64,000 nucleotides of DNA from Candidatus Kerfeldbacteria bacterium (GTDB taxonomy: Bacteria; Patescibacteriota; Patescibacteriia; UBA9570; XYC2-FULL-38-9). The DNA lies in the NCBI GenBank assembly GCA_016182555.1, contig JACPGJ010000002.1:48040-112039 (forward strand). Direction: 5' to 3'. Shown piece after piece: positions 2,201 through 18,418 of the stretch (position 1 is the first letter of the stretch; each line of letters opens with the position of its first letter). The position numbers were made by a program, and so were the translations under genes. The notes beneath the pieces are model-generated. The model was not told the DNA's origin. It did not search any database and saw nothing but the letters and a program-made list of their open reading frames with translations.

Positions 2201-2686
2201 TTATTTCATGGATTCAAGATATGTTTGAATCGTTTGTATATACCTTGGAAATAGTTTCACGCTATTTTGCAGAGCAGCATAAAATTGCATGCTGTTGAGG
2301 TCGTCATATTCGTGAACAAGAATATTTCTTGTTCCAATGCAGGGTTTCGTTGCTTCAGCGAGTTCATGGTCAATGACATTCATTTTTACCAATATGTCAA
2401 AAGAATCTGCATAGCTCGGTGGCGTTTTTTCTCCGGCAGCACGAATAATATGCAAATTGATATCAATACATCGATTAATCACCCGCTCAATCCATCTTTC
2501 CGCAACAGCACTTTTTATATCGTCGTTCATTATGGCTTCATACGAAGATTCTTGGAGTAATTTGTGAATCCGTTCTAGGTCTTCAAGAATGTAGGCGCAC
2601 TTCTGTTCAATAAGCTGCGTGTTCAAATTGGAGGAGTTTTGTTTTGACATATTCATGCGTCGCTTTAAATAATGGTTCAGCATCAA
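2201..2686 (-). CDS. hepT: HepT-like HEPN toxin (DUF86 family)
   Basis: 161 aa with the C-terminal R-x4-H-x-Y motif (RNILVHEYDDL) typical of HepT/DUF86 HEPN RNases. Overlaps the downstream end of the nucleotidyltransferase gene, as in MntA-HepT pairs. Confidence 0.7.
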   Translation of the reverse strand: MMLNHYLKRRMNMSKQNSSNLNTQLIEQKCAYILEDLERIHKLLQESSYEAIMNDDIKSAVAERWIERVINRCIDINLHIIRAAGEKTPPSYADSFDILVKMNVIDHELAEATKPCIGTRNILVHEYDDLNSMQFYAALQNSVKLFPRYIQTIQTYLESMK

Positions 2687-3044
2687 AATATTTCATGAGT
2701 AAACGAATATATTGTTTTTCATCATCGGTTTCAGTGCCAAAGAGTTTGATCCCTTCTGTGGCAATCAGGTAGCCAAGCAGTGGTGGTGCAGTGACCAAGT
2801 TCACACAATCAAATACACTCTCTGAAAGTCCGAGAATATTTTCTATTTTATCATCAAACCCTTGTAAGCTAAAGAATGTTCCACGCGGCATATCACTGCC
2901 ATCATGGCGAAGATAGGCAAGGTCAACATCGCTGTGTTCATTTGCGTCGCCACGCGCATGAGAACCAAACAAATACAACAATTTGAGGTCAAATTCTTTT
3001 GCAACCTCTGCCAGTTGTATTCTTTGTTTTTCAGTAATTTTCAT
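2607..3044 (-). CDS. mntA: MntA-like minimal nucleotidyltransferase antitoxin
   Basis: Motif LFGSHARGDANEHSDVDLAYL (GS-x9-DxD) of the Pol-beta/minimal NTase fold. The start was moved to the internal MKITEKQ methionine. The conserved upstream element lies just 5' of this start. Confidence 0.7.
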   Translation of the reverse strand: MKITEKQRIQLAEVAKEFDLKLLYLFGSHARGDANEHSDVDLAYLRHDGSDMPRGTFFSLQGFDDKIENILGLSESVFDCVNLVTAPPLLGYLIATEGIKLFGTETDDEKQYIRLLMKYFDAEPLFKATHEYVKTKLLQFEHAAY

Positions 3045-3052
3045 ATAGTACC

Positions 3053-3091
3053 TTATCAACATACCACACGAAACCCCTATTGACAAGAATC
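3053..3091. promoter_or_regulatory. Conserved TA-operon upstream element, copy 2
   Basis: ttatcaacataccacacgaaacccctattgacaagaatc, matching copies 1 and 3. Confidence 0.5.
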
Positions 3092-3809
3092 CCACGCATT
3101 GGCCATTTGATTAGGTTGTGTTATATTTCTCTTGGAATGGACACTCCTTGTGAGTCGTTTTTTTATGCAAATATATCAAACCCAAACTCACATCATCAAC
3201 CTATTACCAAAGAGGATCCCAATAGAAAAAATGAACTTTTGCATCGCTTCACAGGAGTAACGCCTAATAATATCCTATTTTCCGTTCAAATAAAAGAAGA
3301 TAAAAAAACGAATGAAAAACGGCTTATCTCTTGTTTTAGTGCTGAAAAATAAAAAGGCTTCCCGCCAGTTTGTGGTGTATAAACCACGGCCGAAAGTCTT
3401 TTCACATACTAGTATATAACACTCATATTTTTCGTCAAACTACTGATGCGGTGGTCTATTACCCAACGTGTGGAGTGGATGTGAGTCCGTCGTCCGGGTT
3501 TCCGAATAGCCGTATGATTTATGCCGAACAAGAAGCTGCGTGTGCTGAAGCGTTCAAGCGCCATCATTTCTTCCCGGCACTCTCGTTTTCCGCCGCTCCA
3601 ACTCGTTACCGTCCAACTTGATTTCACTAAAACAATTTTTCGGTAATCAATTTTTCTACTCGTATTGCTGTTGCTAAAGCCTGTTCTGCATCTGTCCACG
3701 TAAATTCAGGAAATTCTCCTGGATAACGCGTTGTGAAATAAAAATCCGTTTGCCGTTCCGTCACGATGACGGAATATGGATTGTGCATTCAATTCATCAT
3801 CTTCTGCTT

Positions 3810-3890
3810 TCAATAGCCATTCACGCACCGCAAAATGAGTAAATCAATATCGCTGTGTACGGATGGGCTGCCCCAAAATAGGTGAAGCAT
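3810..3890 (-). pseudogene. Nucleotidyltransferase (MntA-like) gene fragment
   Basis: The minus-strand ATG at 3890 translates to MLHLFWGSPSVHSDIDLLILRCVNGY then a stop. It retains the LFGS...HSD[IV]DL NTase signature seen in the intact MntA at 2607-3044. No full-length ORF remains. Confidence 0.4.
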
Positions 3891-3896
3891 ATATTT

Positions 3897-4131
3897 TTAT
3901 AACGCATCTTCCATCGATCCAAAAACGGTTAATCCAGGAATTTTACGAAAATCTTTCTTATTTTTTGTGATTAACGGTATATCCAAAATAAGCGCCGTTG
4001 CGGCAATCAGTAGGTCTGGTAGTTTTGTTTTGCGTGTTCTCCCAAGCATTGCTGCTCGTTCTGCAATAAGCGAATCCACAGAGATAATAGTGGTATAGGA
4101 AAGCCATTTTTTAATTGCCGCTATTTCTTTT
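3897..4131 (-). pseudogene. 5'-truncated PIN (VapC) gene remnant
   Basis: The translation ...KEIAAIKKWLSYTTIISVDSLIAERAAMLGRT...LIAATALILDIPLITKNKKDFRKIP aligns to the C-terminal ~75 residues of the VapC at 191-577. The N-terminal catalytic region and a proper start are missing. Confidence 0.55.
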
Positions 4132-4281
4132 TAAGATACCGCCCATTTTTTTCCATGCTTCTCCGGCTGCGCTTACGTGTTTTTTACTTTCTTGTAGTTC
4201 GATTTTTGCAATATTCAAACGTAGAAGCGTGAGCTCTTTTTCAATATGTTGAATGTGTGTGGTGAGTTGTTGTGTGGTCAT
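4111..4281 (-). CDS. Short VapB-like antitoxin homolog (56 aa) of the decayed TA module
   Basis: ATG at 4281, stop at 4111 (MTTQQLTTHIQHIEKELTLLRLNIAKIELQESKK...). Resembles the N-terminal two-thirds of the 561-812 product. Below the 60-aa cutoff of the ORF track. Confidence 0.45.
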   Translation of the reverse strand: MTTQQLTTHIQHIEKELTLLRLNIAKIELQESKKHVSAAGEAWKKMGGILKRNSGN

Positions 4282-4646: not shown

Positions 4647-4671
4647 TGTCATGGTGAGCCTGTCGAACCAT
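4647..4671. repeat. Direct repeat tgtcatggtgagcctgtcgaaccat (copy 1), hairpin-forming
   Basis: Second copy at 4770-4794. Contains the inverted repeat TCATGGT...ACCATGA. Lies at the low-GC/high-GC junction. Confidence 0.5.
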
Positions 4672-4769
4672 AAAAGGTAGCAGTACATTTACAACACATT
4701 AGGTTTGAATAGAAGTATTTTTTCCGAGTCAGAGAGAATGAGATTATTTTGTCATGCCGACTGCCCACT

Positions 4770-4794
4770 TGTCATGGTGAGCCTGTCGAACCAT
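4770..4794. repeat. Direct repeat tgtcatggtgagcctgtcgaaccat (copy 2)
   Basis: Identical 25-mer ~125 bp downstream of copy 1. Immediately precedes the GC-rich segment. Confidence 0.5.
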
Positions 4795-4974
4795 GAGCAC
4801 AACAAATGATTTTACTCTCTCTGGCTTGGAATTATCTACGTCGGAGAACCCCGGGGTCACCCGAAGGTCGAAAGACCAGAAGGAGGCCGCGTGGTCTCTC
4901 CGGGGAGTGTCTTTGTTGTCCGCAACCCATGGCGTCGCGACGTGTCTTACGTGCGGCGCCACTTTGGAGGTTCT

Positions 4975-5856
4975 ATGAATCGGTTTTTCGTCCTCGCCAC
5001 CGCGCTGGTGGCCGTGATGTTTTCGTCGACGGCCGTCGCGACGGCCGTACCTTCCAATCTTCTTGGTGAGGTGCAGAGGTCTGCACTCACCAAGGTCTGG
5101 GAGGTTGGACCCGGCTCCCTGCCGCCAGAGGGTGCCGAGTGCCAACCGGGAGAAATCCCGGTGGTGCGAGGCACCGCCGACGAGATCCCGGGCGGCGACA
5201 CCGCCCAGGTGCAGCTAGATTCGCGGCGGCTGATGGCCGTCGCTCCCGCCGGTTGGGACGGCTCCTGGGGGTGGATCGCCGGGACGACGACGTCCGGCGA
5301 CAGCGCCGGCGTAGTGGGATGTGCGCCGCGGGGCGCCTTCCCAGCCGCCACGGCGGCGCCCTCGGCCGCCGCCCCCCAGTCACCATACCCGGCCATGCCC
5401 GGCCTTGAGCTCCCCAATGGGGTGAGCCTGAATGCTGAGCTGGACCCCGAGCAGGTTGCGACACTGACGTCGCAGCTGCTCTGCCTCCAGGCGGGGCGGG
5501 GTAACGACTGCCTCGGCGCGTACGCCGGGGGGTCCAACCTGGGGAAGTTACTGGAGAACGGCGCCCCGTTCTCCCTCAGGATGCCGGGGCTCGACCTCGT
5601 CGTCCGCCCCGTGGCCGGCAAACGGAGGGCCGCCCCCGTCGAAGAGGGGAACGGAGAGGCCACCCGCAGGACCAGGTGGTTCTGCGGAGACCACCCGGTG
5701 GTCTGCCTGGCGGCGACCACGATCGTCGTGGTGGGCGGAGTCGCGCTCACCTCGGTGGTCATGGGAAACCCCGTCGTCGATATCGGCGGCGGGAGTGCCG
5801 GTGGTAGCGCCTCCGCAGGCGCCACCGCTGGGTTTACGGTGATGCGCTTTCGGTAG
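4975..5856 (+). CDS. Secreted/membrane-anchored hypothetical protein encoded in the GC-rich island
   Basis: Internal start MNRFFVLATALVAVMFSSTAVATA is signal-peptide-like. Ala/Gly/Pro-rich with a C-terminal hydrophobic stretch. The opposite-strand ORFs in this region look like GC-driven artefacts. Confidence 0.4.
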   Translation: MNRFFVLATALVAVMFSSTAVATAVPSNLLGEVQRSALTKVWEVGPGSLPPEGAECQPGEIPVVRGTADEIPGGDTAQVQLDSRRLMAVAPAGWDGSWGWIAGTTTSGDSAGVVGCAPRGAFPAATAAPSAAAPQSPYPAMPGLELPNGVSLNAELDPEQVATLTSQLLCLQAGRGNDCLGAYAGGSNLGKLLENGAPFSLRMPGLDLVVRPVAGKRRAAPVEEGNGEATRRTRWFCGDHPVVCLAATTIVVVGGVALTSVVMGNPVVDIGGGSAGGSASAGATAGFTVMRFR

Positions 5857-6316
5857 GCGCGCCACCAACTTCGACCGTCGCGTGAGGGTCAGCATCGGCT
5901 GAACCCGAACGCGCATCGCTGCTCTCCGCGGCGGCCGACTTCGAATTCAAACTTGTCGTGTTTCGGGAGGGACGCAACGACGCTGTTCATTCGCTGCGTC
6001 TCTCCCCCTTCTTTCCTTTCTCGGAATCATTTCAGAGAAAGAAAAGTGGGAAAACATTTCTCACGTGCACTTTACAAATTTTTTCACTCTTTATTCAACT
6101 CAAGCCAGGAGTATTCGGATGATCACACAGGAAGACCATAGATGATTCGAGTAATCCTGGCTTGTAGATGCGGCGCCAGGAGGTCCGGGGGGTATGCCCA
6201 CGCTGAAAAGCGCGAAGTGTGCCCTCCAGTGGGGCCTCCCGAGGATCGTTGTTAAACCGAGAGTACGGCCGCCACTGTTCCAATCATGGACAATGGGCGG
6301 CCGTAGAGGAGTCAAA

Positions 6317-7672
6317 ATGAAAAAATGTTTTTGCTGGCTCGCCATCGCAATGATGGTGATGGTCAGCACCACTGCATGCCGCATTCGCGGCGGCAGTGTT
6401 TACGATGACTCAGGGCGGGAGACAGCGGATTCCGCCCTGGATGGAGACAACGACGGCGTCCCCTCGGGCGCCGGTGACTGCGACGACAACGACGCGTCGG
6501 TTTATCCCGGCGCGACCGAGCTGTGCGACGGCGTCGACAACAACTGCGACGGCGAGGTCGACGAGGGGTGTTCGGCTGAAACGCCGACCCCCGAAGCAGA
6601 AACCCCGACCCCGGAACCGACGCCCCCCCTTGACGGGGATGGCGACGGCTACTCCGAGGTCGGTGGCGACTGCGACGACACCAGCTCGGCCGTCCATCCG
6701 GGCGCGGTCGAGGGCTGCGACAGCTTCGACAGCGACTGCGATGGCGCGGTAGATGAGGGGTGTGAGGAGGAGAATCCCACACCCGACGATACGCCGGAGC
6801 CGACCGAAACCCCCGAGCCAGACGACCTGGACGGAGACGGCTACACCGAGGTCGGTGGCGACTGCGATGACACTGATGCGACGGTCTACCCGGGGGCAGA
6901 AGAGCTGTGCAATGATGCAACGGATTCGGACTGTGACGGTAATTCGTCTGAGTCAGAATCTGGATGCGTCGTGTACAGCGATGACGCGGACGGAGATGGG
7001 TATTGTGAGAATTCGCCGTGTGTCGTTTCGACGATGCCGGCGGGTGACTGCGATGACACCGACGCCCGCACTTATCCCGGGGCCGCGGAGACCTGCGACG
7101 GCCTGGACAACGATTGCGATGGGGATCGCGACGACATCGCCGAAGGAACGGGTAGCCTCTACTACCAGGACTCCGACGGCGATGGGTATGGAACTGACTC
7201 TGAGGTTATTTCGGCCTGCAGCCGTCCCGCTGGCTATGCGGTTAGCGACGACGACTGCAACGACGGCAACGCGTCAATCCACCCGGGTGCCACCGAGACC
7301 TGCAACAACGTGGACGACGATTGCGACGGCGCCGTGGAAGACGACACCGTCTGCAACCCGGACTGCGCCGCCACCGCCTTCTGGTGGGGCGCAGATTTCA
7401 ACCTCGTGACCTGGGCGAGCGAGGGTCAGCACCTGATTTCCAATCAGGATGACCCGGACTCGTCCAATACGGTCGAGTCGTCGACCCCCTGGACGTACCA
7501 GGGGCAACTCAACATCTGCGCCGGCGCGACCAGCTCGGCCGACGAGGTTATGGCTGCCGTAAACATCGGCAGCAACACCTGCGTCGCCTGGGACACGGCG
7601 AACGCATATGACGACGATGGGGACGGTTTCTGCGTCCCTATCAAAAAGGCTGAGATCGATCACACTCCGTGA
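6317..7672 (+). CDS. Lipoprotein with tandem MopE-type putative metal-binding Cys/Asp-rich repeats
   Basis: Start MKKCFCWLAIAMMVMVSTTAC with a lipobox-like TAC. At least 7 repeats of DGDGY...GGDCDD-x5-PGA-x-E-x-CDG-x-DNDCDG-xx-DEGC, the 'putative metal-binding motif' repeat described for MopE and many myxobacterial proteins. Very high GC. Confidence 0.6.
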   Translation: MKKCFCWLAIAMMVMVSTTACRIRGGSVYDDSGRETADSALDGDNDGVPSGAGDCDDNDASVYPGATELCDGVDNNCDGEVDEGCSAETPTPEAETPTPEPTPPLDGDGDGYSEVGGDCDDTSSAVHPGAVEGCDSFDSDCDGAVDEGCEEENPTPDDTPEPTETPEPDDLDGDGYTEVGGDCDDTDATVYPGAEELCNDATDSDCDGNSSESESGCVVYSDDADGDGYCENSPCVVSTMPAGDCDDTDARTYPGAAETCDGLDNDCDGDRDDIAEGTGSLYYQDSDGDGYGTDSEVISACSRPAGYAVSDDDCNDGNASIHPGATETCNNVDDDCDGAVEDDTVCNPDCAATAFWWGADFNLVTWASEGQHLISNQDDPDSSNTVESSTPWTYQGQLNICAGATSSADEVMAAVNIGSNTCVAWDTANAYDDDGDGFCVPIKKAEIDHTP

Positions 7673-7684
7673 TTTGATCTCCTC

Positions 7685-7710
7685 TGCGCGGTTCACCACT
7701 GCCGCGCGGA
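7685..7710. repeat. GC-rich hairpin ctgcgcggttcaccactgccgcgcgg (copy 1), with the shared flank recurring at 10235-10330
   Basis: The 32-nt stretch ctctgcgcggttcaccactgccgcgcggaagt at 7682-7713 is identical to 10235-10266. Both are followed by cgctcctt...tcttcttttttttt. Confidence 0.5.
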
Positions 7711-8167
7711 AGTTAACACAAGTGGAGGTTCCCGGAGCGCCGCTGCGAAAAGCGATCGCGAGCCGGTGGAGGAGGGAACTGACGTACGGCCGCAAGGCCA
7801 CGAGACCCAAGCCGCGCAAGCGGAACGAAGAGGACCCATGTCCTCCAATCGTCGAGTGCAACACGCGCTCCTTGGGTCTTCTTTTTTTTATTCAAATTTT
7901 TCTATAAATACTTGACGAAAGCAAGGTATACAAGTACAGTGCTCGTAGAATATTGTTTTTTATGTTAAAATATAGACATGATCAATAAATACACCTATCG
8001 ACTATTTAGAGTTCCCACCTTTAAACGGGGCATGGCCAGCTTGATTGATATTACCGGCAAGTTGAACGAAATTCGATTTGATAAAAGTGGCTCTGAAGCT
8101 GACTATAAGGCTTTATCGAGTGACTGGAAAGCCGTGGGGGAAGATTTACAGAATGCTATGAATACTT

Positions 8168-8561
8168 ATGGAAGAAAAAAATCAGCTACAAGACCAAAGT
8201 AAATCACCGACAACAAATAATACGCATCAACTTATTGCTGTTCAGCATTCTTTTTCAGGTCCCATTCCACCGCCAGATGTGTTGAATGATTACGAACGTA
8301 TTGAAAAAGGATTGGCGAGTCGTATTGTAAATATGGCCGAGAAGCAGTCAGGCCATAGGCAAAACATTGAAAGCAGATATATTCGTTCAGCAAATCTTCG
8401 CTCAATTCGCTGGGTTGTTTGTAGGGGCATATTTAGTCATTCAGGGAAACAATGTCATGGGGATATTATTTTCTTCCGGGCCATTGGCAACAATTATTCT
8501 CGCTTTTTTAAATGAATCTAAAAAGGATAGAGCGGTAAAGCAGGAAGAGGAAGTCGAGTAA
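8168..8561 (+). pseudogene. DUF2335-like small membrane protein, apparently frameshifted
   Basis: Frame A (8168-8515) carries SGPIPPPDVLNDYERIEKGLASRIVNMAEKQSGHRQ. Overlapping frame B (8367-8561) carries the hydrophobic tail ...FAGLFVGAYLVIQGNNVMGILFSSGPLATIILAFLNE. Together they resemble one phage-associated DUF2335-type protein split by a +/-1 shift. The family assignment is from memory. Confidence 0.3.
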
Positions 8562-8604
8562 GTCTATGTAATATAAGGATTGGAGTGTTCCAGTTCGGTA
8601 TAAG

Positions 8605-8623
8605 ATCCCGCAAGGGATTTTTT
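8605..8623 (+). terminator. Intrinsic terminator (ATCCC-GCAA-GGGAT + T6)
   Basis: 5-bp stem with a GNRA tetraloop followed by a T-run, downstream of the DUF2335-like ORFs. Confidence 0.5.
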
Positions 8624-8660
8624 ACTTTATGGAAAGCGGTTTTTTTCCAAAATTTGTACA

Positions 8661-8733
8661 TTGACCCAGTACACAACTTTGATATACTAAACACAGTTGG
8701 ACACTACTCACCGTTGCGGAGCAGTGTTTTTTT
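8661..8733 (+). promoter_or_regulatory. Promoter (TTGACC-N16-TATACT) plus 5' leader hairpin/T7 attenuator-like structure upstream of Bro-N gene 1
   Basis: -35 at 8661-8666 and -10 at 8683-8688, then CACTACTC-N9-GAGCAGTG followed by TTTTTTT at 8703-8733. The ~95-bp module is ~90% identical to 10323-10401. Confidence 0.5.
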
Positions 8734-8765
8734 ACTTGATTCAAAAATTAAATTACAATAAAAGT

Positions 8766-9647
8766 ATGAGCAAACCACAAGACTCTAAATCAATCGTTTT
8801 ATTTGAAGACGTACCCGTCCGTCGTATTTGGGTAGAGCAGGAAGAAAAATGGTATTTTGCTATCGTGGATATCATTAAAATACTCACAGATAGCAAAGAT
8901 CCGCAAGGTTATATTAAAGATATGCGCCGTCGTGATTCTGTATTATCTCAAGGGTGGGGGCAAATTGCCACCCCCCTTTTGGTCGAAACCAGAGGAGGTA
9001 AGCAAAAGGTTAATTGTGCCAATGTTCAAGGGGTTTTGCGTATTATTCAAAGTATCCCATCCAAAAAAGCTGAACCGTTTAAACAGTGGTTAGCTAAGGT
9101 GGGCTATGAGCGGCTCCAAGAAACGGTTGACCCAGAACGGGCGTTAAACCGTGCACGCAAGAATTGGAAAGAATTAGGGCGATCTGAAAAGTGGATTGAG
9201 CAACGAATGCGCGGTCAAGAAACCCGTAATAAACTCACGGACTACTGGCAGACCCACGGGGTAAACGAACAGCCTGAATATGCCCAGTTAACAAATATTA
9301 TTCATAAGGAATGGAGTGGGTTGAGTGTTGGTGAGCATAAGAAACTCAAAAAGTTGAAACAGGAAAATTTACGAGATAATATGACCGAAGCTGAACTGAT
9401 CTTTACCGCTCTTGCCGAATTTTCTACTCGTCAGATTGCAAACCATAATCGATCAGAAGGTTTTGTTGAAAATGCTCAATCGGCTAAGCGAGGCGGAAAA
9501 ATTTCTGCTCATGCTCGTCAACAGCTTGAACAAGAGTCAGGAGAAAAAGTAGTCAGTGCTGAAAATTTTTTACCACCTATATCATTAAGCTCAGCGTTAA
9601 AAAAATCAAAAAACGCAAAGAAGCTGAACTCTCGAAACCGAAAATGA
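8766..9647 (+). CDS. Bro-N/KilA-N-like DNA-binding domain protein (phage antirepressor-like), paralog 1
   Basis: N-terminal ...VRRIWVEQEEKWYFAIVDIIKILTDS...QGVLRIIQSIPSKKAEPFKQWLAKVGYERLQE is a Bro-N-like fold signature. Start set at the internal MSKPQDSK. About 60% identical to the 10435-11286 product. Confidence 0.5.
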   Translation: MSKPQDSKSIVLFEDVPVRRIWVEQEEKWYFAIVDIIKILTDSKDPQGYIKDMRRRDSVLSQGWGQIATPLLVETRGGKQKVNCANVQGVLRIIQSIPSKKAEPFKQWLAKVGYERLQETVDPERALNRARKNWKELGRSEKWIEQRMRGQETRNKLTDYWQTHGVNEQPEYAQLTNIIHKEWSGLSVGEHKKLKKLKQENLRDNMTEAELIFTALAEFSTRQIANHNRSEGFVENAQSAKRGGKISAHARQQLEQESGEKVVSAENFLPPISLSSALKKSKNAKKLNSRNRK

Positions 9648-9673
9648 CTATATTTCATTTACCGATATCCTGA

Positions 9674-9705
9674 TTTTAATGTTATGGAATTCCATAACAT
9701 TAAAA
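9674..9705. repeat. 32-bp perfect palindrome TTTTAATGTTATGGAATTCCATAACATTAAAA
   Basis: Exact reverse-complement symmetry about the central GAATTC. Lies in the 9648-9864 intergenic gap between Bro-N gene 1 and the small wHTH gene. Confidence 0.7.
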
Positions 9706-9864
9706 ATGAAGCCGGTTCTCATGGTTTCATTTGAGATCATGGGCCAATAATTCAGGAATGAAAAAATTTGATAATCATGAATGACGATTTCTCAACCCCA
9801 GATAATGCAAATGTAATAAAATGAAGAGTTTCAAAAGTAATTTACAGAAGACCAATGAATACCA

Positions 9865-10059
9865 TTGGGATTGAATGTACGACAATTCAAAGCAGTGGTA
9901 TACGTTAAAAAAAAGAGAAAAATTACTAATAAAGAATATCAGCAATTATGCTTTGTATCCCGAGAAACTGCTTCGCGTGAGTTAGCGCATCTTACAGATA
10001 AAAATATTTTTGTACATTCGGGAAGTAAGGGTGCTGGTTCGTATTTTACATTAAAATAA
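9865..10059 (+). CDS. Small winged-helix DNA-binding protein
   Basis: 64 aa. ...ITNKEYQQLCFVSRETASRELAHLTDKNIFVHSGSKGAGSYFTL resembles the C-terminal wHTH found in Fic/RecG-like regulator families. Confidence 0.4.
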   Translation: MGLNVRQFKAVVYVKKKRKITNKEYQQLCFVSRETASRELAHLTDKNIFVHSGSKGAGSYFTLK

Positions 10060-10237
10060 TTGCGTCAAATAAATAAAATAAGCCCTGTGTAGCTAGGCCC
10101 TTGCGGGCGAACGGCATGAAGCCGACTTTCACATACACAGGACTTACTTATACGTATACAATAGAGATAGAGCAAATATTCAGGAATATCAAACTTACTT
10201 TTTAAAACTGAAAAATAGGCTTTCGTAACAATGGCCT

Positions 10238-10263
10238 CTGCGCGGTTCACCACTGCCGCGCGG
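10238..10263. repeat. GC-rich hairpin ctgcgcggttcaccactgccgcgcgg (copy 2)
   Basis: Identical to 7685-7710. A local GC-rich patch in otherwise AT-rich DNA. Confidence 0.5.
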
Positions 10264-10328
10264 AAGTCCTCCAATCGCCCCCGTGCACACGCGCTCCTTC
10301 TCGTCTTCTTTTTTTTCAAAATTTGTAC

Positions 10329-10401
10329 ATTGACGCTTCATACAAGTTTGATATACTAAACACAGTTGGACACTACTCACCTTTGCGGAGCAGTGTTTTT
10401 T
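10329..10401 (+). promoter_or_regulatory. Promoter (TTGACG-N16-TATACT) plus leader hairpin/T7 upstream of Bro-N gene 2
   Basis: Same module as 8661-8733. Hairpin CACTACTC...GAGCAGTG at 10370-10394, then T7. Confidence 0.5.
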
Positions 10402-10434
10402 TATGTGAAAATGAATTACTATTAAGAAAGGACT

Positions 10435-11286
10435 ATGCCAACACAAACCGTGCGTACACCAGAAACAACACAAATTGTCTTATTCAAAGGCAAGCAAATC
10501 CGGAAAACCATCCATAATAACGAATGGTGGTTTTCGGTGGTCGATGTAGTAGAAGCATTGACTGACAGCGTGAATGCTAATGATTATTGGTATAAAATGA
10601 AGGTTCGAGTACAGGATGAGGAAAAAATTGAACTATCGACAATTTGTCGACAGTTGAAATTGGTAGCTCCAGATGGAAAAATGCGTGAAACCGACTGTGC
10701 AAATACCGAAGGCATTTTCCGCATCATTCAATCTATTCCTTCTCCAAAAGCCGAGCCATTTAAGCGCTGGTTGGCGAAAGTCGGCTATGAGCGTGTACAG
10801 GAAATTGAAAATCCGGAGTTAGCGACGAAACGTACACGTATGCTCTACAAACTGAAAGGGTATAGTGATGGGTGGATAGAAAAACGAATGCGAGGTATTG
10901 CGATTCGTGAAGAGCTGACCGATGAATGGGATAAACGCGGGGCAAAAGAAGAACAAGATTATGAAATTTTGACTGCTGAAATTTCCAAAGCGACGTTTGG
11001 CGTTACACCGAAACAATACAAAAAATTGAAGGGTATCAAGCGAGAGAATTTACGCGATCACATGGAAGAATTAGAACTGATTTTTAATATGCTTGGAGAA
11101 AAAGCAACAACAGAAATTCACCAGAGTGAAAATTCGCAAGGTATGACGAAATTGAAAGCAGATGCTAAGGCCGGTGGAGATATTGCTGGTGGCGCGAGGA
11201 AAAAATTAGAAAAACGGCTTGGTCGTTCAATCGTTTCAAAAAAGAATTTTCTCAAAAACACCGAAGAGCGCAAGAAATTGAAATAA
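10435..11286 (+). CDS. Bro-N/KilA-N-like DNA-binding domain protein, paralog 2
   Basis: ...IRKTIHNNEWWFSVVDVVEALTDS...EGIFRIIQSIPSPKAEPFKRWLAKVGYERVQE, the same architecture as 8766-9647. Confidence 0.5.
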   Translation: MPTQTVRTPETTQIVLFKGKQIRKTIHNNEWWFSVVDVVEALTDSVNANDYWYKMKVRVQDEEKIELSTICRQLKLVAPDGKMRETDCANTEGIFRIIQSIPSPKAEPFKRWLAKVGYERVQEIENPELATKRTRMLYKLKGYSDGWIEKRMRGIAIREELTDEWDKRGAKEEQDYEILTAEISKATFGVTPKQYKKLKGIKRENLRDHMEELELIFNMLGEKATTEIHQSENSQGMTKLKADAKAGGDIAGGARKKLEKRLGRSIVSKKNFLKNTEERKKLK

Positions 11287-11408: not shown

Positions 11409-11840
11409 ATGAAAAAGTGGGTAAGTCTTTATGTTCTGGGTTTGCTGTGCATGCTCAGTGGTTGCTCGCTTGGTGGAAATACCGAAGCCAGCAGTCGCGA
11501 GACGGCGGTGGAATCAACCCAGACTACCGCCATGACCGAAAACCCAGACTGCTCCGCAGACTGGGTGTGGGTGAAGGTTGACTTCACTCGAGTGCAATGG
11601 GCATGTGAAGGCGAGGATTGTGTGTATCCCACGACCGGCACCAGCGGTATGTGGGTTCCGACGCCATGGTCAGTCGGCACTGAAAAGGTCTCTCCCTGGG
11701 CTGGAGCGCTCACCTCATTCAGCAGCCTCTCAAGCGCGCTGACCTGGAGCAACTTATGCGTTGGATGGAATTCCAGTTCATTCTGGATTCCTTCCGGCAG
11801 CAATGGCGGCTGTGCACATCTGGAGAAAGTGGCGGAGTAG
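11409..11840 (+). CDS. Lipoprotein, hypothetical
   Basis: MKKWVSLYVLGLLCMLSGC signal plus lipobox. Trp/Cys-rich mature part. Moderately GC-enriched. Confidence 0.5.
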   Translation: MKKWVSLYVLGLLCMLSGCSLGGNTEASSRETAVESTQTTAMTENPDCSADWVWVKVDFTRVQWACEGEDCVYPTTGTSGMWVPTPWSVGTEKVSPWAGALTSFSSLSSALTWSNLCVGWNSSSFWIPSGSNGGCAHLEKVAE

Positions 11841-11984: not shown

Positions 11985-13424
11985 ATGCCGCAAGCACCAC
12001 AGCTTCACCAGCCATCTATTTTTGCACCATTGCGTGCGACAGCCCGCACTCGAGTGTTAGCTCTTTTTTTTGCGGCCACGTGGATCGTCGGCGTTGCAAG
12101 TTTGCTTTTTATCCCCGGCGTTCCGCATTGGTTTTTTTATGCGTTTATCGCTTTCACCGCCGCCAGCCTCTTTTTTGCGCAGTACCCACACCTCGCGCTC
12201 TATGGCATGGCCGCTACGTATCCCTTTCTGTACTGGCAAATTATTTTTGGGCCTATTAACGCACCGGTGGTTGACGTTATCGGCGTTTTTGCGGTTGCCG
12301 GTTTGGCAGTGCGTCTCCTCATTTTCGCTATGAGCGACAAAGCAGCATTTCGTGCCACGCATTGGTGGGGAGGTGGATTGTTTTTGGCTTGGGTTGCAGT
12401 TGGTATCATTTCCGCAACACAAACAATAGTATTACCGGTGACCAGCAGCCTTTATTACGTGTTGCGCATGATGAGTTTTTTCTACATTGCGTATATTTTT
12501 TTCCCAATGAACACCATGAGGAATTCGAAGACACTCCATCATATATTGCGTATTCTTTTGGGGGTGGGAGTGATTGTGGCGATCTATGGTCTATACAGTT
12601 TTGGTGTAGCGCTCGCCAACCCAAATATTCCGGACCGTGCTATTCCTGTAGTGATCTTCGGTTTTGCGCCACTTGGCATAAATCATAACTTGATTGCCGA
12701 TATGATGGTGGCGATTATTCCTATTGGGTTGTATTTATTGAGCCAAGAAAAAAACCCGGTTATACAACGCTTTTTTCTGCTTTCCATTTCGTTGATGGCT
12801 ATGGTCAATATGCTTACATTTTCTCGTACTGGCTGGTTAGCGTTTGTATTAGAAATGGTTTTGCTTGTGGTGTTCCAATACCGTCACCATATAAAACGTT
12901 TCTTCAAATATATGGTGTTGACCAGTCTCATTGCTTTTCCCATTATTGCGTATATGCTCTATTTCACCTTCACCAGCGATATCGTTCGCAGTTCCAACCA
13001 AAGCCGCTTATTTTTGAATGATATTGCACTGCAAATGTTTGAAGACCACCCGTTCATTGGCAATGGGCCAAACGCGTTTGTGTACCAGTTGTCATACAAC
13101 AAATTGTATACCTTAGAATATGGTGAACCGATTGATGCGCATGGGTTTATTCAAAAAGTAGGCAGTGAATTGGGTATTCTTGGTTTGCTTATTTATAATG
13201 CGCTGGTGATTTATGCCATATTCACTGCATATAGAGCTTATAGTCGTTACGCAAAAAATGCGCAAGAATCATATTTGCTCTTTTGCTTATTCCTCCTCGT
13301 GTGTGGTAGTATTTTTTCTCAGTTATTTCAAACGTCATATTATTCACCAAAAATGTGGTTTCCGATTGGTGTAGCGCTTGCCGCCGCATCACTGGCGAAG
13401 AAAAAAGAATCGTTGAGTATATGA
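11985..13424 (+). CDS. O-antigen ligase/polymerase-like membrane protein (Wzy_C family)
   Basis: Polytopic. Carries the LTFSRTGWLAFVLE and EPIDAHGFIQKVGSELGILGLL loop motifs characteristic of WaaL/Wzy-type proteins. The exact start is uncertain. Confidence 0.6.
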   Translation: MPQAPQLHQPSIFAPLRATARTRVLALFFAATWIVGVASLLFIPGVPHWFFYAFIAFTAASLFFAQYPHLALYGMAATYPFLYWQIIFGPINAPVVDVIGVFAVAGLAVRLLIFAMSDKAAFRATHWWGGGLFLAWVAVGIISATQTIVLPVTSSLYYVLRMMSFFYIAYIFFPMNTMRNSKTLHHILRILLGVGVIVAIYGLYSFGVALANPNIPDRAIPVVIFGFAPLGINHNLIADMMVAIIPIGLYLLSQEKNPVIQRFFLLSISLMAMVNMLTFSRTGWLAFVLEMVLLVVFQYRHHIKRFFKYMVLTSLIAFPIIAYMLYFTFTSDIVRSSNQSRLFLNDIALQMFEDHPFIGNGPNAFVYQLSYNKLYTLEYGEPIDAHGFIQKVGSELGILGLLIYNALVIYAIFTAYRAYSRYAKNAQESYLLFCLFLLVCGSIFSQLFQTSYYSPKMWFPIGVALAAASLAKKKESLSI

Positions 13425-14494
13425 AACAGATTGTCCATATCATTGATAGTCTCCGCTGCGATGGTGCTCAGCGTATGTTGACTGAATTGTTAACGCGTTT
13501 GGATTCGCAGCAATTTGAAGCACGGGTGATTGCGCTCACCGGTTCAGGTAACGATTATATCTACCAACAACTGCAGGCTGCGGGAATAGAGGTAGAAATT
13601 ATTCAAGAACGGGGAGTGGGGATGCGATCATTTTTTCAACTGATGCGGTTATTGAAACGCTGGCGGCCAGATATTGTGCATACACATTTATTTTTTTCAG
13701 ATGTGTGGGGTGCGGCCGCATGCAAGCTGGCTGGAGTGCCAGTATTGGTGTCAACTGAACATAATATCAACAGAGATTTTAACCGAACAAAATTAGTGTT
13801 CAAGCGAAAAGCATACAGAAAATGTGATGCGATTATAGCGATTTCACAGGCGGTGAAAGAATATATCGTCGAGCTTGATTCAAAGAACCAATGCAAGGTT
13901 CGATTGATTTATAATGGCATCGATCTTTCCCGTTTTTCTGCAAAGAAAACGCCAACAATGCTACACCAACCGCCCGTCATTTCTATTATTGGTCGTTTAG
14001 AAGAGCAGAAAGGACATGCCCAGGCGATAGCTGCGTTTGCGCAGGTGAAAGGAGCGGTTGATTTACATATTATTGGGCAGGGGAGTTTACAGCTTGCCTT
14101 AGAACAACAGGTACAGCAAATTGGGTTGAAAAACCGTGTGCAATTTTTGGGGCAACGAATAGATATTGAACAGGTGTATGCTGATTCGGATATTATTTTT
14201 ATCCCATCCCGTTTTGAAGGGTTCGGATTAGTCGCGGTTGAAGCCATGGCCGCTGGGAAACCCATTGTGGCTTCACGTGTTGATGGTTTGGCAGAAATTT
14301 TGCAACACGAAAAAACAGCGTTGTTGGTTGACATGCAACAACCCAAAACAGTGGCCCAGCAGATAGATCGTTTACTGGCTGAGCCGACATTGCGCGCCCA
14401 CCTTGGTGCAACAGCGAAACAAGATGCGCAACGTTTTGATATTGCAAAAACGGTGGAACAATACCAGCAGCTCTACAAAGAATTAACCACATGA
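13421..14494 (+). CDS. Glycosyltransferase family 4
   Basis: C-terminal EGFGLVAVEAMAAGKPIVASRVDG (the E-x7-E GT4 signature region). Start at the internal MKQIVHI. Confidence 0.8.
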   Translation: MKQIVHIIDSLRCDGAQRMLTELLTRLDSQQFEARVIALTGSGNDYIYQQLQAAGIEVEIIQERGVGMRSFFQLMRLLKRWRPDIVHTHLFFSDVWGAAACKLAGVPVLVSTEHNINRDFNRTKLVFKRKAYRKCDAIIAISQAVKEYIVELDSKNQCKVRLIYNGIDLSRFSAKKTPTMLHQPPVISIIGRLEEQKGHAQAIAAFAQVKGAVDLHIIGQGSLQLALEQQVQQIGLKNRVQFLGQRIDIEQVYADSDIIFIPSRFEGFGLVAVEAMAAGKPIVASRVDGLAEILQHEKTALLVDMQQPKTVAQQIDRLLAEPTLRAHLGATAKQDAQRFDIAKTVEQYQQLYKELTT

Positions 14495-14498
14495 GTGT

Positions 14499-15164
14499 AT
14501 GAAATTGACTGCACGGTTTTCTACGTATTTTCGTGATAAAAAATGGCAATTGTTTGAACAACATTTTTCGCTTCATCCGCAAACCACCATACTCGATATT
14601 GGTTATCAAAATAAGGAATACCAAGCGGCAGATAATTATTTAGAAAAACACTATCCGTTTCCAGCACAGATTACCGCACTCGGTATTGATCCACCGGAGG
14701 AGTTTCAACAACGGTATCCGCAAGTGAAAACGGTGCATTACGACGGCCGCGTTTTTCCATTCGCTGACAACACATTTGATATCGCCTGGTCCAACGCTAC
14801 TATTGAGCATGTGGGTCCATTCGACCGTCAACTCGTATTTATAAAAGAGATGGCACGCACGTCACGTAATCTTTTTTTCACCACTCCGAACCGTTGGTTT
14901 CCCATTGAAGTACACACCCGTTTTCCTTTTATTCACTGGTTGCCACGTCACTGGTTTAATGGCATAGTGAAGTTGTTCGGCAAAGATTGGGCCGCAGGCG
15001 ACTATATGTTTTTATTAAGCAGCCGGCAGCTGAAACGTTTACTCGCCGCTTCCGGTATTGAGCGCTATACGCTTATTCGTCAACGCTTCTGCGGTTTTAC
15101 TCTTCAGTTTATTGTTATTGTGCATCACTCATCAGCAACACATGAAGATACTCCAAATCAATAA
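14499..15164 (+). CDS. Class I SAM-dependent methyltransferase (Methyltransf_11-like)
   Basis: ILDIGYQ (motif I) and FPFADNTFDIAWSNATIEHV (motif II/post II). Confidence 0.6.
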   Translation: MKLTARFSTYFRDKKWQLFEQHFSLHPQTTILDIGYQNKEYQAADNYLEKHYPFPAQITALGIDPPEEFQQRYPQVKTVHYDGRVFPFADNTFDIAWSNATIEHVGPFDRQLVFIKEMARTSRNLFFTTPNRWFPIEVHTRFPFIHWLPRHWFNGIVKLFGKDWAAGDYMFLLSSRQLKRLLAASGIERYTLIRQRFCGFTLQFIVIVHHSSATHEDTPNQ

Positions 15165-16338
15165 ATTTTTTTACCGCCGTGCTGGTGCAGAGAATTATTT
15201 TTTAGATGTGAGCCGTGCGCTGGAACAGGCTGGTCACGAGATGGCGTTTTTTTCCATGCACCATCCGCAGAATGTACCGAGCCCGTACGCAAAATATTTT
15301 ATTGACGAAATTGATTTTGGGAGCGGTGCGCAGCGGTCAATACAAAAAGCCGCCCATTTTATTTATTCTACAGAAGCCGCAAAAAAATTAGAGCAGCTGA
15401 TTACCGATCACCGCCCAGACATTGCCCATGTGCATAATATTGCTCATCAGCTGACGCCATCAGTACTGGATACCCTTCGGAAACACCATATTCCTGTCGT
15501 GATGACGCTGCACGATTATCAAGTGCTTTGCCCGAATTACAAACTATTTACCCAAGGCAGCCCGTGCGAACGCTGTAAAGTGCATCAATATTGGAATGCC
15601 ATCAAATTCAACTGCGTGCAAGATGCGAAATTGCCCTCTGCACTTTCTGCAGTAGAAATGGCGGTGCAGAATGTGTTCAAAAAAACGTATGCTAAAGGAG
15701 TGAATATATTTATTGCACCATCACAGTTTATGTATACCAAAATGAATGAGTGGGGCTGGCCAGAAAGCCAACTGCACTACTTGCCAAACTTCATTGATCG
15801 CATTCGTGATACACGCATCAAAAAAAAGAATCAATTTGCCTATATTGGACGACTCACCAAAGAGAAGGGGGTGCACCTTGTGTTGGAAGCTGCTCGTCGC
15901 ATGCAAGATACCACATTTATTTTTGCCGGTTCTGGGGAAGAGGAATCAAACATGAAAGCAACGATTCAAAAAGAAGGTTTGAAAAATTGTGTCATGCTGG
16001 GTTTCCAACCTGAACACAAAATTGATACACTCATTCAAGAATCACAAGCGGTATTGGTACCGTCATTGTGGTGGGAGAACGCACCCTTGTCTGTATATGA
16101 AGCATTGGCGTTAGGCACGCCCGTTATTGCATCCAACCGTGGTGGCTTACCAGAATTGATAAAAAAAGGAAAAAATGGTATAATATTTAATCCAGAAAAA
16201 TCAAACGCCCTGGCTGAAGCCATTCAGCAAATGCTCGCTATGCCACCTTTACAAATTCCTAAAAATACGTATACTGTAGGGTCTCATGTCGAGGCACTCA
16301 CCGCACTTTATGAAAAAACTATTCGCCAAAAAAAATAG
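15142..16338 (+). CDS. Glycosyltransferase family 4
   Basis: MKILQINKFFYRRAGAE N-terminus. C-terminal SLWWENAPLSVYEALALGTPVIASNRGGLPE. Confidence 0.75.
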   Translation: MKILQINKFFYRRAGAENYFLDVSRALEQAGHEMAFFSMHHPQNVPSPYAKYFIDEIDFGSGAQRSIQKAAHFIYSTEAAKKLEQLITDHRPDIAHVHNIAHQLTPSVLDTLRKHHIPVVMTLHDYQVLCPNYKLFTQGSPCERCKVHQYWNAIKFNCVQDAKLPSALSAVEMAVQNVFKKTYAKGVNIFIAPSQFMYTKMNEWGWPESQLHYLPNFIDRIRDTRIKKKNQFAYIGRLTKEKGVHLVLEAARRMQDTTFIFAGSGEEESNMKATIQKEGLKNCVMLGFQPEHKIDTLIQESQAVLVPSLWWENAPLSVYEALALGTPVIASNRGGLPELIKKGKNGIIFNPEKSNALAEAIQQMLAMPPLQIPKNTYTVGSHVEALTALYEKTIRQKK

Positions 16339-18412: not shown

Positions 18413-18418
18413 AATTGC

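What the first reader, a model, noticed from the sequence alone, without database searches (positions are those of the whole stretch)
4800..7900. Abrupt ~3-kb GC-rich segment encoding a MopE-type Cys/Asp-repeat lipoprotein: foreign island or chimeric assembly
Base composition switches visibly near 4800-4850 to a G+C-dominated segment, roughly two-thirds GC by eye against ~40% elsewhere, and switches back near 7900. The two genes in it read cleanly in one frame only. One is a secreted protein (4975-5856) and the other a lipoprotein (6317-7672) built from at least 7 tandem repeats of DGDGY..GGDCDD..PGA.E.CDG.DNDCDG..DEGC. That repeat is the 'putative metal-binding motif' best known from myxobacterial and other high-GC proteins. 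Opposite-strand ORFs across the region have the Arg/Ala/Pro/Thr-rich look of GC-driven artefacts. The left junction is marked by a duplicated 25-mer hairpin repeat (4647-4671, 4770-4794). The right junction carries a GC hairpin module (7682-7713) repeated 2.5 kb further on at 10235-10266. The segment is either a recently acquired island or a metagenome mis-join.
Basis: seen in the sequence. Interest (0 to 1): 0.62.

Follow-up and report, generated by a model that had tools for sequence, protein, structure and literature searches.

The report
GC-rich surface-protein gene pair in CPR bacteria
The GC-rich 3-kb stretch is real and correctly assembled, and it is this tiny bacterium's copy of a fast-changing pair of cell-surface genes that sit beside the same sugar-polymerase gene in many related bacteria and are unusually GC-rich in most of them, for reasons still unknown.

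Summary
Window 4830-7865 is 63.6% GC against 43% elsewhere (z=13). Third-codon-position GC is 0.83 and 0.75 in the two genes, against 0.34-0.46 in neighbours.

The window is a contig of a Candidatus Kerfeldbacteria MAG (CPR/Patescibacteria). Chimerism is rejected. A second assembler's contigs cross both composition boundaries. A related genome (L016) carries a homologous GC-rich MopE-repeat gene upstream of the same Wzy gene.

The 'one-off foreign island' reading is not supported either. Gene A is a secreted, membrane-anchored protein with a new 83-aa two-cysteine domain, possibly an OmpA-like fold. Gene B is a lipoprotein-like protein with 5 PF11617 repeats. Together they form a module upstream of a collinear Wzy-GT4-GHL15/FG-GAP envelope cluster. 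Wzz lies on the left in other genomes but is absent from this window.

In 8 loci found through gene A, the pair is 52-70% GC in hosts of about 34-60% GC. In 20 syntenic genomes found through GHL15 alone, 18 have a GC-elevated slot (P=1.6e-4). Several of these slots encode MopE-repeat lipoproteins.

The enrichment is confined to coding sequence and affects all synonymous classes. A Flavobacteriales MopE gene sits at host GC.

The cause is unresolved: lateral allele replacement from a GC-rich pool (favoured), or a GC-favouring force restricted to coding sequence.

The parts
4647..4794 (+). Two exact copies of a 25-nt hairpin-forming repeat (4647-4671 and 4770-4794), both to the left of the GC-rich segment. 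It belongs to a dispersed short-repeat family and is not an island boundary.
   Evidence: The 23-nt core occurs exactly in at least 120 metagenome contigs of 27-74% GC.
4975..5856 (+). Gene A (MBI2410334.1, 293 aa). It has a signal peptide, a conserved 83-aa two-cysteine domain (about aa 37-119), a variable middle part, and a C-terminal transmembrane and Gly-rich tail. GC is 70% and GC3 is 0.83.
5857..6316 (+). A-B spacer. The 100-nt windows dip to 42-45% GC in its AT-richer middle. It contains a long imperfect hairpin at 6096-6170 and a GGAG motif ahead of the 6317 start.
   Evidence: sequence; hairpin -33.4 kcal/mol, z=-6.6; spacer GC in all loci.
6317..7672 (+). Gene B (MBI2410335.1; NCBI starts it at 6194). 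It has a lipoprotein-like signal, 5 PF11617 Cys/Asp repeats joined by Pro/Thr/Glu linkers, and a Trp/Cys-rich C-terminal domain (aa 347-445). GC is 63% and GC3 is 0.75.
   Evidence: The only PDB sequence match is residues 5-46 of MopE* 2VOV. The C-terminal domain matches the small lipoprotein at 11409.
7673..7896 (+). Structured 3' region of gene B. It holds the 33-nt hairpin (7681-7713), a 126-nt GC-rich stretch (7714-7839) that is absent from the second copy, and a stem-loop followed by T8 (about 7803-7888) that looks like a terminator.
   Evidence: alignment with 10214-10360. (-99.7 kcal/mol, z=-4.6).
7978..11286 (+). Lineage-specific low-GC insert between gene B and Wzy. It carries a small ORF, DUF2335, two Bro-N genes (8697-9647 and 10435-11286), the second 33-nt hairpin copy (10235-10267), and 100-nt upstream repeats (8640-8739 and 10309-10408).
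   Evidence: The relative L016 has no match to this stretch; there 2.5 kb separate the B homologue from Wzy.
11409..11840 (+). Small lipoprotein (143 aa, LSGC lipobox) paralogous to the C-terminal domain and N-terminus of gene B. GC is 56% and GC3 is 0.62.
   Evidence: BLASTP E=5e-8. GC. One other homologue among 5.8e9 proteins.
11985..20275 (+). Conserved right-hand neighbours: Wzy_C (11985-13424), GT4 (13355-14494), methyltransferase (14499-15164), GT4 (15058-16338), GHL15/FG-GAP (16286-18412), and a 618-aa protein (18419-20275). These fix the position of the A-B slot across genomes.
   Evidence: Pfam. Orthology to L012, L013 and L016.
2201..4281 (-). Left flank. An intact HepT/MNT toxin-antitoxin pair is followed by fragments of HEPN, nucleotidyltransferase and PIN genes. 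No Wzz gene is present in the window, so the left border of the slot has been rearranged.

Best explanation
The segment is not a mis-join, and it is not a novel insertion. It is the Kerfeldbacteria copy of a two-gene cell-surface module that lies next to a collinear Wzy-GT4-GHL15/FG-GAP envelope gene cluster in Kerfeld-, Magasanik-, Falkow- and Uhrbacteria-type Patescibacteria.

Gene A is exported. Its new two-cysteine domain may bind the cell wall, because the fold resembles OmpA/Pal domains, and the protein is held in the membrane by a C-terminal helix. Gene B is a lipid-anchored protein built from disulfide-rich, Asp-rich repeats that probably bind calcium. Together they most likely form a variable surface layer or adhesin displayed alongside the Wzy-made glycan. 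These functions are inferred, not shown.

The module is hypervariable. The partner of A differs between genomes (MopE, PKD or Dicty_CTDC-type repeats), and the A domain is present in only some genomes.

I think the GC-rich composition most likely arises because alleles of this module are repeatedly replaced by lateral exchange from a pool of about 65-70% GC. That is comparable to the swapping of O-antigen and capsule loci. After import, the alleles decay slowly towards host composition.

Shown here: correct assembly, synteny, recurrence of the GC excess, its restriction to coding sequence, and the protein architectures. Inferred: lateral replacement as the cause, and the surface or adhesin function.
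For: Assembly. Two Logan contigs equal the window across both GC boundaries.

Synteny. L012 and L013 read Wzz-A-B-Wzy-GT4-(MT)-GHL15. The window has Wzy-GT4-MT-GT4-GHL15-618 aa in the same order, with orthologues 23-45% identical. L016 is collinear over more than 17 kb.

Recurrence of the GC excess:
- L013: A is 63% and B is 64% GC (GC3 .80 and .91) in flanks of 28-40%.
- L006: 65% and 64% against about 50%.
- L009: 63% and 60% against 45%.
- L012: 54% and 52% against about 38%.
- In 20 syntenic GTDB genomes chosen through GHL15 only, 18 are GC-elevated upstream of Wzy, and 15 have at least 25% of the slot more than 10 points above background. The background median is 3% (Wilcoxon P=1.6e-4).
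- Those slots encode PF11617 lipoproteins and secreted proteins with a transmembrane tail, with GC3 .77-.98.

For lateral replacement:
- B is only 24-38% identical between the window and L016, while flanking genes are 40-74%.
- The A domain is absent from all 80 GHL15-anchored loci.
- Cassette GC mostly clusters at 59-72% whatever the host GC, with a tail of intermediate values (L012, L047, L024, L029, L034, L044) that looks like amelioration.
- GC1/2/3 of gene A matches a genome of about 67% GC.
- Toxin-antitoxin and Bro-N genes crowd the locus here and in L006.
Against: No donor was found. Gene A has no relative above about 55% identity among 1.8e9 representative proteins. Every named member of its family is a Patescibacterium.

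The cassette is GC-richer than even the roughly 60% GC relatives that carry it.

The spacers between A and B sit at host-like GC (23-45% in L013, the window, L009 and L011). A recently imported block from a 65-70% GC donor would not look like that.

A-domain divergence between genomes (38-39%) matches that of the flanking genes (23-45%), as expected for long residence.

The window lacks Wzz and the left-hand synteny.

Confidence: 0.5

Rival explanations
1. A GC-favouring force acts in place. The module has been resident in each lineage for a long time, and something acting only on its coding sequence keeps it near 65-70% GC against the host's AT-biased mutation. Candidates are GC-biased gene conversion at a recombination hot spot, or selection on the mRNA or codons.
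For: The excess recurs in hosts of 25-62% GC and at a fixed place.

It stops at the start and stop codons while spacers stay host-like.

It affects NNY, NNR and four-fold codons alike.

The cassette exceeds host GC even in roughly 60% GC genomes.

MopE genes at other loci of Patescibacteria are also GC-rich: L094 has GC3 .64 against .11-.23, and L095 has .69 against about .5.

A-domain divergence equals flank divergence. No donor is known.
Against: To my knowledge, no bacterial process is known to raise GC3 by 40-60 points.

Biased gene conversion should also enrich the spacers, and it does not.

Several syntenic genomes have host-like or only mildly raised slots (L030, L093, L045).

Cassette values look bimodal, with a plateau and a decaying tail, rather than scaling with host GC.
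Confidence: 0.28
2. A single recent import of a foreign island from a high-GC non-CPR donor such as Myxococcota or Actinobacteria, specific to this genome.
For: GC1/2/3 looks like a genome of about 67% GC. PF11617 proteins are common in Myxococcota and other high-GC MAGs. The locus is full of toxin-antitoxin and Bro-N genes.
Against: There is no integrase, tRNA or flanking repeat.

The A family is found only in Patescibacteria-type contexts.

The same gene pair lies in the same position in L012, L013 and L006, and a B homologue lies there in the relative L016.

The nearest B relatives are only about 40-44% identical, and only over the repeats.
Confidence: 0.1
3. Chimeric metagenome assembly that joined a high-GC organism's contig into a low-GC contig.
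For: The right end of the Logan contig L001 falls inside the 33-nt repeat that also occurs at 10235. The link across 7681-7713 therefore depends on the original assembler.
Against: L001 runs from 1.4 kb of low-GC flank through both genes without a branch. L002 runs from the repeat through the GC-rich 7714-7860 into 850 nt of low-GC DNA. Either way of resolving the repeat keeps the genes inside this genome.

The same arrangement is seen in more than 20 independent assemblies, including an 886-kb chromosome-level record (L026), and in the relative L016.
Confidence: 0.02

Closest known systems
O-antigen and capsule (Wzx/Wzy-dependent) gene clusters, which have hypervariable content and atypical base composition at a fixed chromosomal site
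   Same: The module lies beside Wzy and GT4 genes of an envelope cluster, with Wzz on the other side in L012, L013 and L092. Its content differs between relatives while the flanks are conserved. Its composition departs strongly from the genome.
   Different: From general knowledge, those clusters are typically AT-rich relative to the genome, and their variable genes encode sugar enzymes. Here the deviation is towards GC, by 15-30 points. The deviant genes encode a secreted anchor protein and a repeat lipoprotein. The pattern also spans order-level lineages, not strains.
PF11617 'putative metal-binding motif' proteins (annotated 'MopE-related') of Myxococcota and other bacteria
   Same: Gene B has 5 repeats above the Pfam cut-off (186 bits against 27). 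There are thousands of homologues at about 35-44% identity.
   Different: In Patescibacteria the gene is much GC-richer than its genome. A Flavobacteriales member is at host GC. B also has a lipoprotein-like leader and a private C-terminal domain shared only with the small lipoprotein at 11409.
MopE/CorA copper-binding surface proteins of methanotrophs (PDB 2VOV)
   Same: One roughly 40-residue Cys/Asp motif is shared.
   Different: Only residues 5-46 of the 336-residue MopE* align (E=2.9e-4). [quoted passage not shown] Nothing here supports copper binding.
OmpA_C/Pal/MotB-type peptidoglycan-binding domains
   Different: There is no Pfam or PDB sequence match, and Foldseek finds nothing significant. 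The domain has two invariant cysteines and only about 83 residues.
Large cysteine-rich extracellular proteins of CPR bacteria (Peribacteria; PMC4736985)
   Same: [quoted passage not shown]
   Different: That paper reports no compositional anomaly and no fixed locus. Those genomes are 58% GC.
Classical integrase-borne genomic island
   Same: Atypical composition, and neighbouring toxin-antitoxin and phage-like genes.
   Different: No integrase, no tRNA target and no bracketing direct repeats. Homologues lie at the same site in relatives.

Membership tests
Integrase-type genomic island | Base composition deviates from the genome | tested here: met
   63.6% against 43.0% GC, z=13.4. GC3 is .83 and .75 against .34-.46.
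Integrase-type genomic island | Carries an integrase, recombinase or transposase | tested here: not met
   Only two genes lie in 4830-7865. Neither they nor the tested neighbours have such a domain.
Integrase-type genomic island | Inserted at a tRNA or bracketed by direct repeats | tested here: not met
   There is no tRNA in 64 kb. Both 25-mers lie to the left. The 33-mers bracket the Bro-N unit, not the island.
Integrase-type genomic island | Absent from the same site in close relatives | tested here: not met
   L016 has a homologous GC-rich MopE gene upstream of Wzy. L012, L013 and L006 have the A-B pair beside orthologous neighbours.
Assembly chimera | Junctions not reproduced by an independent assembly | tested here: not met
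   Logan contigs equal 3371-7710 and 7684-8707 with 0 mismatches. Read-level coverage could not be checked.
PF11617 repeat proteins | Pfam HMM above the gathering score, in several copies | tested here: met
   186.3 bits against 27, with 5 stretches.
MopE/CorA copper proteins | Homology over the copper-binding core of MopE* | tested here: not met
   Only residues 5-46 of 2VOV_A align. PMC6189053 makes the same point about PF11617.
Bacterial lipoprotein (gene B) | Signal peptide ending in a lipobox cysteine | tested here: inconclusive
   MKKCFCWLAIAMMVMVSTTAC has the hydrophobic core and the Cys, but T-T-A-C is not the canonical L-[AS]-[GA]-C. No predictor was available. B-type partners in L009, L011, L012, L080 and L092 have clearer G-C or A-C lipoboxes.
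OmpA_C-like peptidoglycan-binding domain (gene A) | Fold match to solved OmpA_C/Pal domains | tested here: inconclusive
OmpA_C-like peptidoglycan-binding domain (gene A) | Sequence match to PF00691 or to PDB OmpA-like chains | tested here: not met
   No Pfam hit at E<=0.01. The profile search against PDB found nothing relevant.
Wzy-dependent surface-glycan cluster (context) | Wzy polymerase plus glycosyltransferases next to the module | tested here: met
   Wzy_C at 11985-13424, and GT4 at 13355-14494 and 15058-16338.
Wzy-dependent surface-glycan cluster (context) | Wzz/PCP chain-length determinant at the left border, as in L012, L013 and L092 | tested here: not met
   tblastn with five Wzz-like proteins finds nothing in the window.
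Diversity-generating retroelement target | Template/variable repeat pair and a reverse transcriptase nearby | not tested
   No such repeat pair appeared in the repeat finder of 4000-11500. The window was not scanned for a reverse transcriptase.

The most novel reading that the evidence does not exclude
Across a whole class-level clade of AT-rich CPR bacteria, a process restricted to coding sequence holds one surface-protein module at about 60-70% GC (GC3 up to 0.9-0.98) against the host's mutational bias. The process could be biased gene conversion, or selection on the mRNA or codons. If so, this is a natural and unusually strong case of gene-specific GC maintenance in bacteria.
Probability: 0.27. 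Interest if true: 0.85.

Novelty: new variant of a known kind. Interest (0 to 1): 0.62.

Why it matters
If the pattern holds, three things follow.

1. Binning and contamination filters that discard GC outliers will systematically remove, or break contigs at, a real and probably important surface locus of CPR genomes. Several contigs here start or end inside it.

2. The module is a candidate for the variable surface structure through which these episymbionts meet hosts or phages.

3. A gene pair that stays 15-30 GC points above its genome in many lineages, only within its coding sequence, is a sharp test case for an old question: whether bacterial GC content is shaped by biased gene conversion or selection rather than mutation alone. 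Polarised polymorphism data from existing deep metagenomes could decide between import followed by decay and active maintenance.

Tried and rejected
Searches that found nothing:
- Rfam (gathering thresholds) and ARAGORN over the whole window.
- A word-indexed homologue search for gene A, which returned only itself. Full HMMER was needed.
- The search for related loci with the A-domain alignment. The 3-sequence alignment found no relative in genome, metagenome or viral collections.
- The afdb50 fold library was unavailable. Foldseek against PDB was uninformative. The A profile against PDB sequences gave only a chance hit.
- blastn of the segment against related loci showed similarity only inside coding repeats and the A domain, with no conserved non-coding element.
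- Four literature searches found no description of GC-rich cassettes in CPR, and a search for PF11617 found only the two papers used for MopE.

Analyses that could not decide the cause:
- Dinucleotide signatures separate cassettes from hosts, but the Asp/Gly/Cys-rich composition confounds this, so I did not use it to decide the cause.
- Copies of related loci from different samples were identical, so substitutions could not be polarised.

Ideas considered and rejected:
- Translational-accuracy selection on NNC codons: the shift also affects NNR and four-fold codons.
- An intrinsic codon need of the MopE repeat: the Flavobacteriales gene is at host GC.
- Adenine-specific (DGR-like) mutagenesis: the sense strand is not A-depleted, and AT skew is positive in gene B.
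- The 25-mer and 33-mer as att sites: their positions do not bracket the segment.
Full report
**1. What the window is**

Exact protein look-ups place the window on a 123,536-bp contig of a MAG named Candidatus Kerfeldbacteria bacterium, a member of the CPR/Patescibacteria. The two genes of the finding are MBI2410334.1 (HYV32_00360) and MBI2410335.1. The genome background is 43% GC.

**2. The observation**

The composition shift is real and sharp.
- In 60-nt windows, GC climbs from about 0.47 to 0.58-0.60 at about 4830. It falls from 0.62 to 0.28 between 7810 and 7930.
- Window 4830-7865 is 63.6% GC against 43.0% elsewhere. That is 13.4 standard deviations above all 3-kb windows of 8-64 kb.
- Gene 4975-5856 is 70% GC, with GC by codon position .69/.58/.83.
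- Gene 6317-7672 is 63% GC, with .63/.51/.75.
- Fourteen other genes have GC3 of .34-.46.
- The excess is found in C-ending NNY codons, G-ending NNR codons and four-fold sites alike. It is therefore a general synonymous shift. It is not an effect of amino-acid content or of accuracy selection.

- PF11617 is present at E=8.5e-56, but with 5 repeats, not 7 or more.
- Both repeat pairs are exact, but neither brackets the segment.
- Antisense and alternative-frame ORFs have no family.

**3. It is not a chimera**

The public Logan assembly of run SRR12113422 holds two relevant contigs.
- One is identical to window 3371-7710. It runs from 1.4 kb of low-GC flank through both genes.
- The other is identical to 7684-8707. 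It runs from the 33-nt repeat through the GC-rich 7714-7860 into low-GC DNA.

Both contigs stop at repeats: the 33-mer, and the 100-nt Bro-N upstream repeat. The only link not seen twice is therefore the one across the 33-mer. Either way of resolving that repeat leaves the genes inside this genome.

The right-hand module (7681-7896) is a longer version of the element at 10235-10320, with 126 extra GC-rich bases. The GC boundary therefore lies inside a repeated element that also occurs in this genome's low-GC DNA.

**4. Gene A**

A word-indexed search of 5.8e9 proteins found only the protein itself. Full HMMER against 1.84e9 representatives found 16 distant hits to residues about 4-146, including one hyalin-like hit from a sea star that looks like chance. 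The 15 that align share an 83-residue domain with invariant W, P, C, P, G, Q, L, R, T and C.

Every member that carries a name is a Patescibacterium (Magasanikbacteria, Magasanikiibacteriota, 'Patescibacteria group'), apart from that sea-star hit.

The protein also has a signal peptide and a C-terminal hydrophobic helix.

**5. Gene B**

B has a lipoprotein-like leader. It then has five Cys/Asp repeats joined by Pro/Thr/Glu linkers, and a Trp/Cys-rich C-terminal domain.

It shares only one roughly 40-residue motif with MopE* (residues 5-46 of 2VOV). This agrees with the remark in PMC6189053 that PF11617 covers only a small part of MopE/CorA. B is therefore a PF11617-repeat protein, not a MopE orthologue, and copper binding is unsupported.

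Its C-terminal domain, and even its leader, resemble the 143-aa lipoprotein at 11409-11840 (E=5e-8). That gene is itself 56% GC.

**6. The pair recurs, at the same place, and is GC-rich elsewhere too**

Contigs carrying A homologues show the following.

| Locus | Source | What follows A | GC of A, B | Host GC |
|---|---|---|---|---|
| L006 | Logan | PF11617 protein | 65%, 64% | about 50%; toxin-antitoxin genes on both sides and an orthologue of the window's GT4 downstream |
| L009 | 131-kb Patescibacteria contig | MopE-repeat lipoprotein | 63%, 60% | 45% |
| L012 | 347-kb Patescibacteria contig | PKD and Cys-repeat protein | 54%, 52% | about 38% |
| L013 | Magasanikiibacteriota | Dicty_CTDC-repeat protein | 63%, 64% (GC3 .80.91) | flanks 28-40%, GC3 .19-.33 |
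| L003, L007 | hosts of about 60% GC | 2363-aa protein (L003); PKD lipoprotein (L007) | 65-66% | about 58-60% |

L012 and L013 both read Wzz - A - B - Wzy - GT4 - (MT) - GHL15/FG-GAP. The window has Wzy, GT4, MT, GT4, GHL15/FG-GAP and a roughly 600-aa protein in the same order, with orthologues 23-45% identical.

In every one of these loci the GC excess begins and ends within about 100 nt of the coding sequences. Most spacers longer than about 300 nt dip towards host-like values: 23-42% in L013's 698-nt spacer, and 42-45% in the window. The short spacers of L007 and L012 do not dip in this way.

**7. An ascertainment-free test**

Loci found through gene A could be biased towards GC-rich cases. 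I therefore anchored a genome scan on the GHL15/FG-GAP protein instead.

None of the 80 loci returned has the A domain. Twenty of them have Wzy upstream of GHL15 with enough sequence upstream to test. Among these 20:
- 18 have raised mean GC in the 5 kb upstream of Wzy.
- 15 have at least a quarter of that slot more than 10 GC points above background. The median for the rest of each locus is 3% (Wilcoxon P=1.6e-4).

The GC-rich ORFs there are again of two kinds: secreted proteins with a C-terminal membrane helix, and lipoproteins. The lipoproteins carry PF11617 repeats in L092, L080, L022, L017 and L016, and a marginal Dicty_CTDC-type match, just under the Pfam cut-off, in L018. Their GC3 is .77-.98.

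These records include a 2015 genome (GW2011_GWA2_47_26, L092) and a chromosome-level record of 886 kb (L026).

L016 is a close relative of the window genome. It is collinear from Wzy onward, with 40-74% protein identity. It has a GC-rich MopE gene (64-72% GC, GC3 .98) that is only 24-38% identical to B. The gene lies 2.5 kb upstream of Wzy and has no Bro-N insert after it.

**8. Is GC-richness a property of the repeat?**

It is not. A Flavobacteriales PF11617 gene has host composition, with GC3 .43 against .40-.48.

Two MopE genes at other loci of Patescibacteria are GC-rich.
- In an Uhrbacteria contig whose other genes are about 29-37% GC (L094), GC3 is .64 against .11-.23.
- In L095, GC3 is .69 against about .5.

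**9. Interpretation**

The solid conclusion is this: the segment is the local copy of a hypervariable two-gene surface module with a fixed address beside the Wzy cluster, and its GC-richness is a recurrent trait of that module in this clade.

The cause is open.

I favour repeated lateral replacement of alleles from a GC-rich pool, followed by slow decay. The reasons are:
- B diverges far faster than its flanks.
- Slot content differs between genomes.
- Cassette GC mostly plateaus at about 60-72% whatever the host, with an intermediate tail.
- Codon-position GC looks like a genome of about 67% GC.

Four points weigh against this:
- No donor exists among 1.8e9 proteins.
- The A family is confined to Patescibacteria.
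- The cassette exceeds even hosts of about 60% GC.
- Spacers are host-like while GC3 is not, although neutral decay should treat the two alike.

These points favour a GC-favouring force restricted to coding sequence. That would be unusual for bacteria. Biased gene conversion alone does not explain the AT-rich spacers.

I could not polarise substitutions, because copies from different samples were identical.

**10. Function (inferred)**

Three observations bear on function: the export signals; a possible wall-binding domain plus membrane anchor in A; and a lipid anchor plus disulfide-rich, Asp-rich repeats in B. The module's position next to the Wzy polymerase and glycosyltransferases points the same way.

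Together they suggest a surface layer or adhesin displayed with the Wzy-made glycan. Its variability would fit pressure from hosts or phages. This is in line with the Cys-rich, strain-variable extracellular proteins noted in Peribacteria (PMC4736985).

**11. Novelty**

I found no description of this pattern in the searchable literature, and absence there is not proof. It resembles the atypical-GC, hypervariable O-antigen and capsule loci, but with the opposite sign, different gene types and a much wider phylogenetic span. I therefore rate it a new variant of a known kind.

Noticed in passing
Their GC ranges from 27% to 74%. It often lies next to a partner motif ...CCTTCGACAAGCTCAGGATGAGCGG.... 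This is a dispersed short repeat shared across very different genomes, of unknown nature.
   Followed up: partly
window 38100-38700: A second GC-rich islet (58-61% GC, and the only other place where 300-nt windows exceed 58%) overlaps an ORF of about 176 aa (38148-38678, + strand) with no Pfam family. The reading frame is uncertain.
   Followed up: partly
window 11400-12450: About 1 kb of moderately raised GC (50-62%) covers the small lipoprotein 11409-11840, a paralogue of the C-terminal domain of gene B. It also covers the first roughly 300 nt of Wzy (52.5% GC against 41% for the rest of that gene). It could be an old recombination tract.
   Followed up: partly
window 7681-11286: Two Bro-N genes appear as a tandem duplication. 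Each is preceded by a 100-nt repeat (90% identical), and each unit is opened by the same 33-nt GC hairpin. The first unit also carries DUF2335 and a small ORF. The relative L016 has no match to this stretch.
   Followed up: partly
window 6096-6170: A long imperfect hairpin of about 30 bp lies in the A-B spacer (-33.4 kcal/mol, z=-6.6). No T-run follows it and it has no Rfam family. It could be a regulatory element or a small inserted repeat.
   Followed up: no
window 7714-7839: A 126-nt GC-rich, strongly folding stretch lies between the two halves of the hairpin/terminator element. The copy at 10235-10320 lacks it. The whole region 7673-7900 folds at z=-4.6.
   Followed up: partly
window 2201-4281: An intact HepT/MNT toxin-antitoxin pair is followed by about 1.2 kb of broken HEPN, nucleotidyltransferase and PIN fragments and a small antitoxin-like ORF: a toxin-antitoxin graveyard. 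In L006 the same gene pair is also flanked by toxin-antitoxin modules (AbiEii/DUF6922 and HicAB).
   Followed up: partly
loci L014-L093 (record titles): About half of the GTDB records that carry this Patescibacteria-type cluster are titled 'uncultured Gammaproteobacteria bacterium'. One is titled Nanoarchaeia and one Bacillota. These titles look like placeholders or mislabels.
   Followed up: no
L016 position 1; L009 and L010 ends: Contigs from independent assemblies repeatedly begin or end inside the GC-rich repeat gene. This locus may therefore be under-represented or split in CPR MAGs.
   Followed up: no
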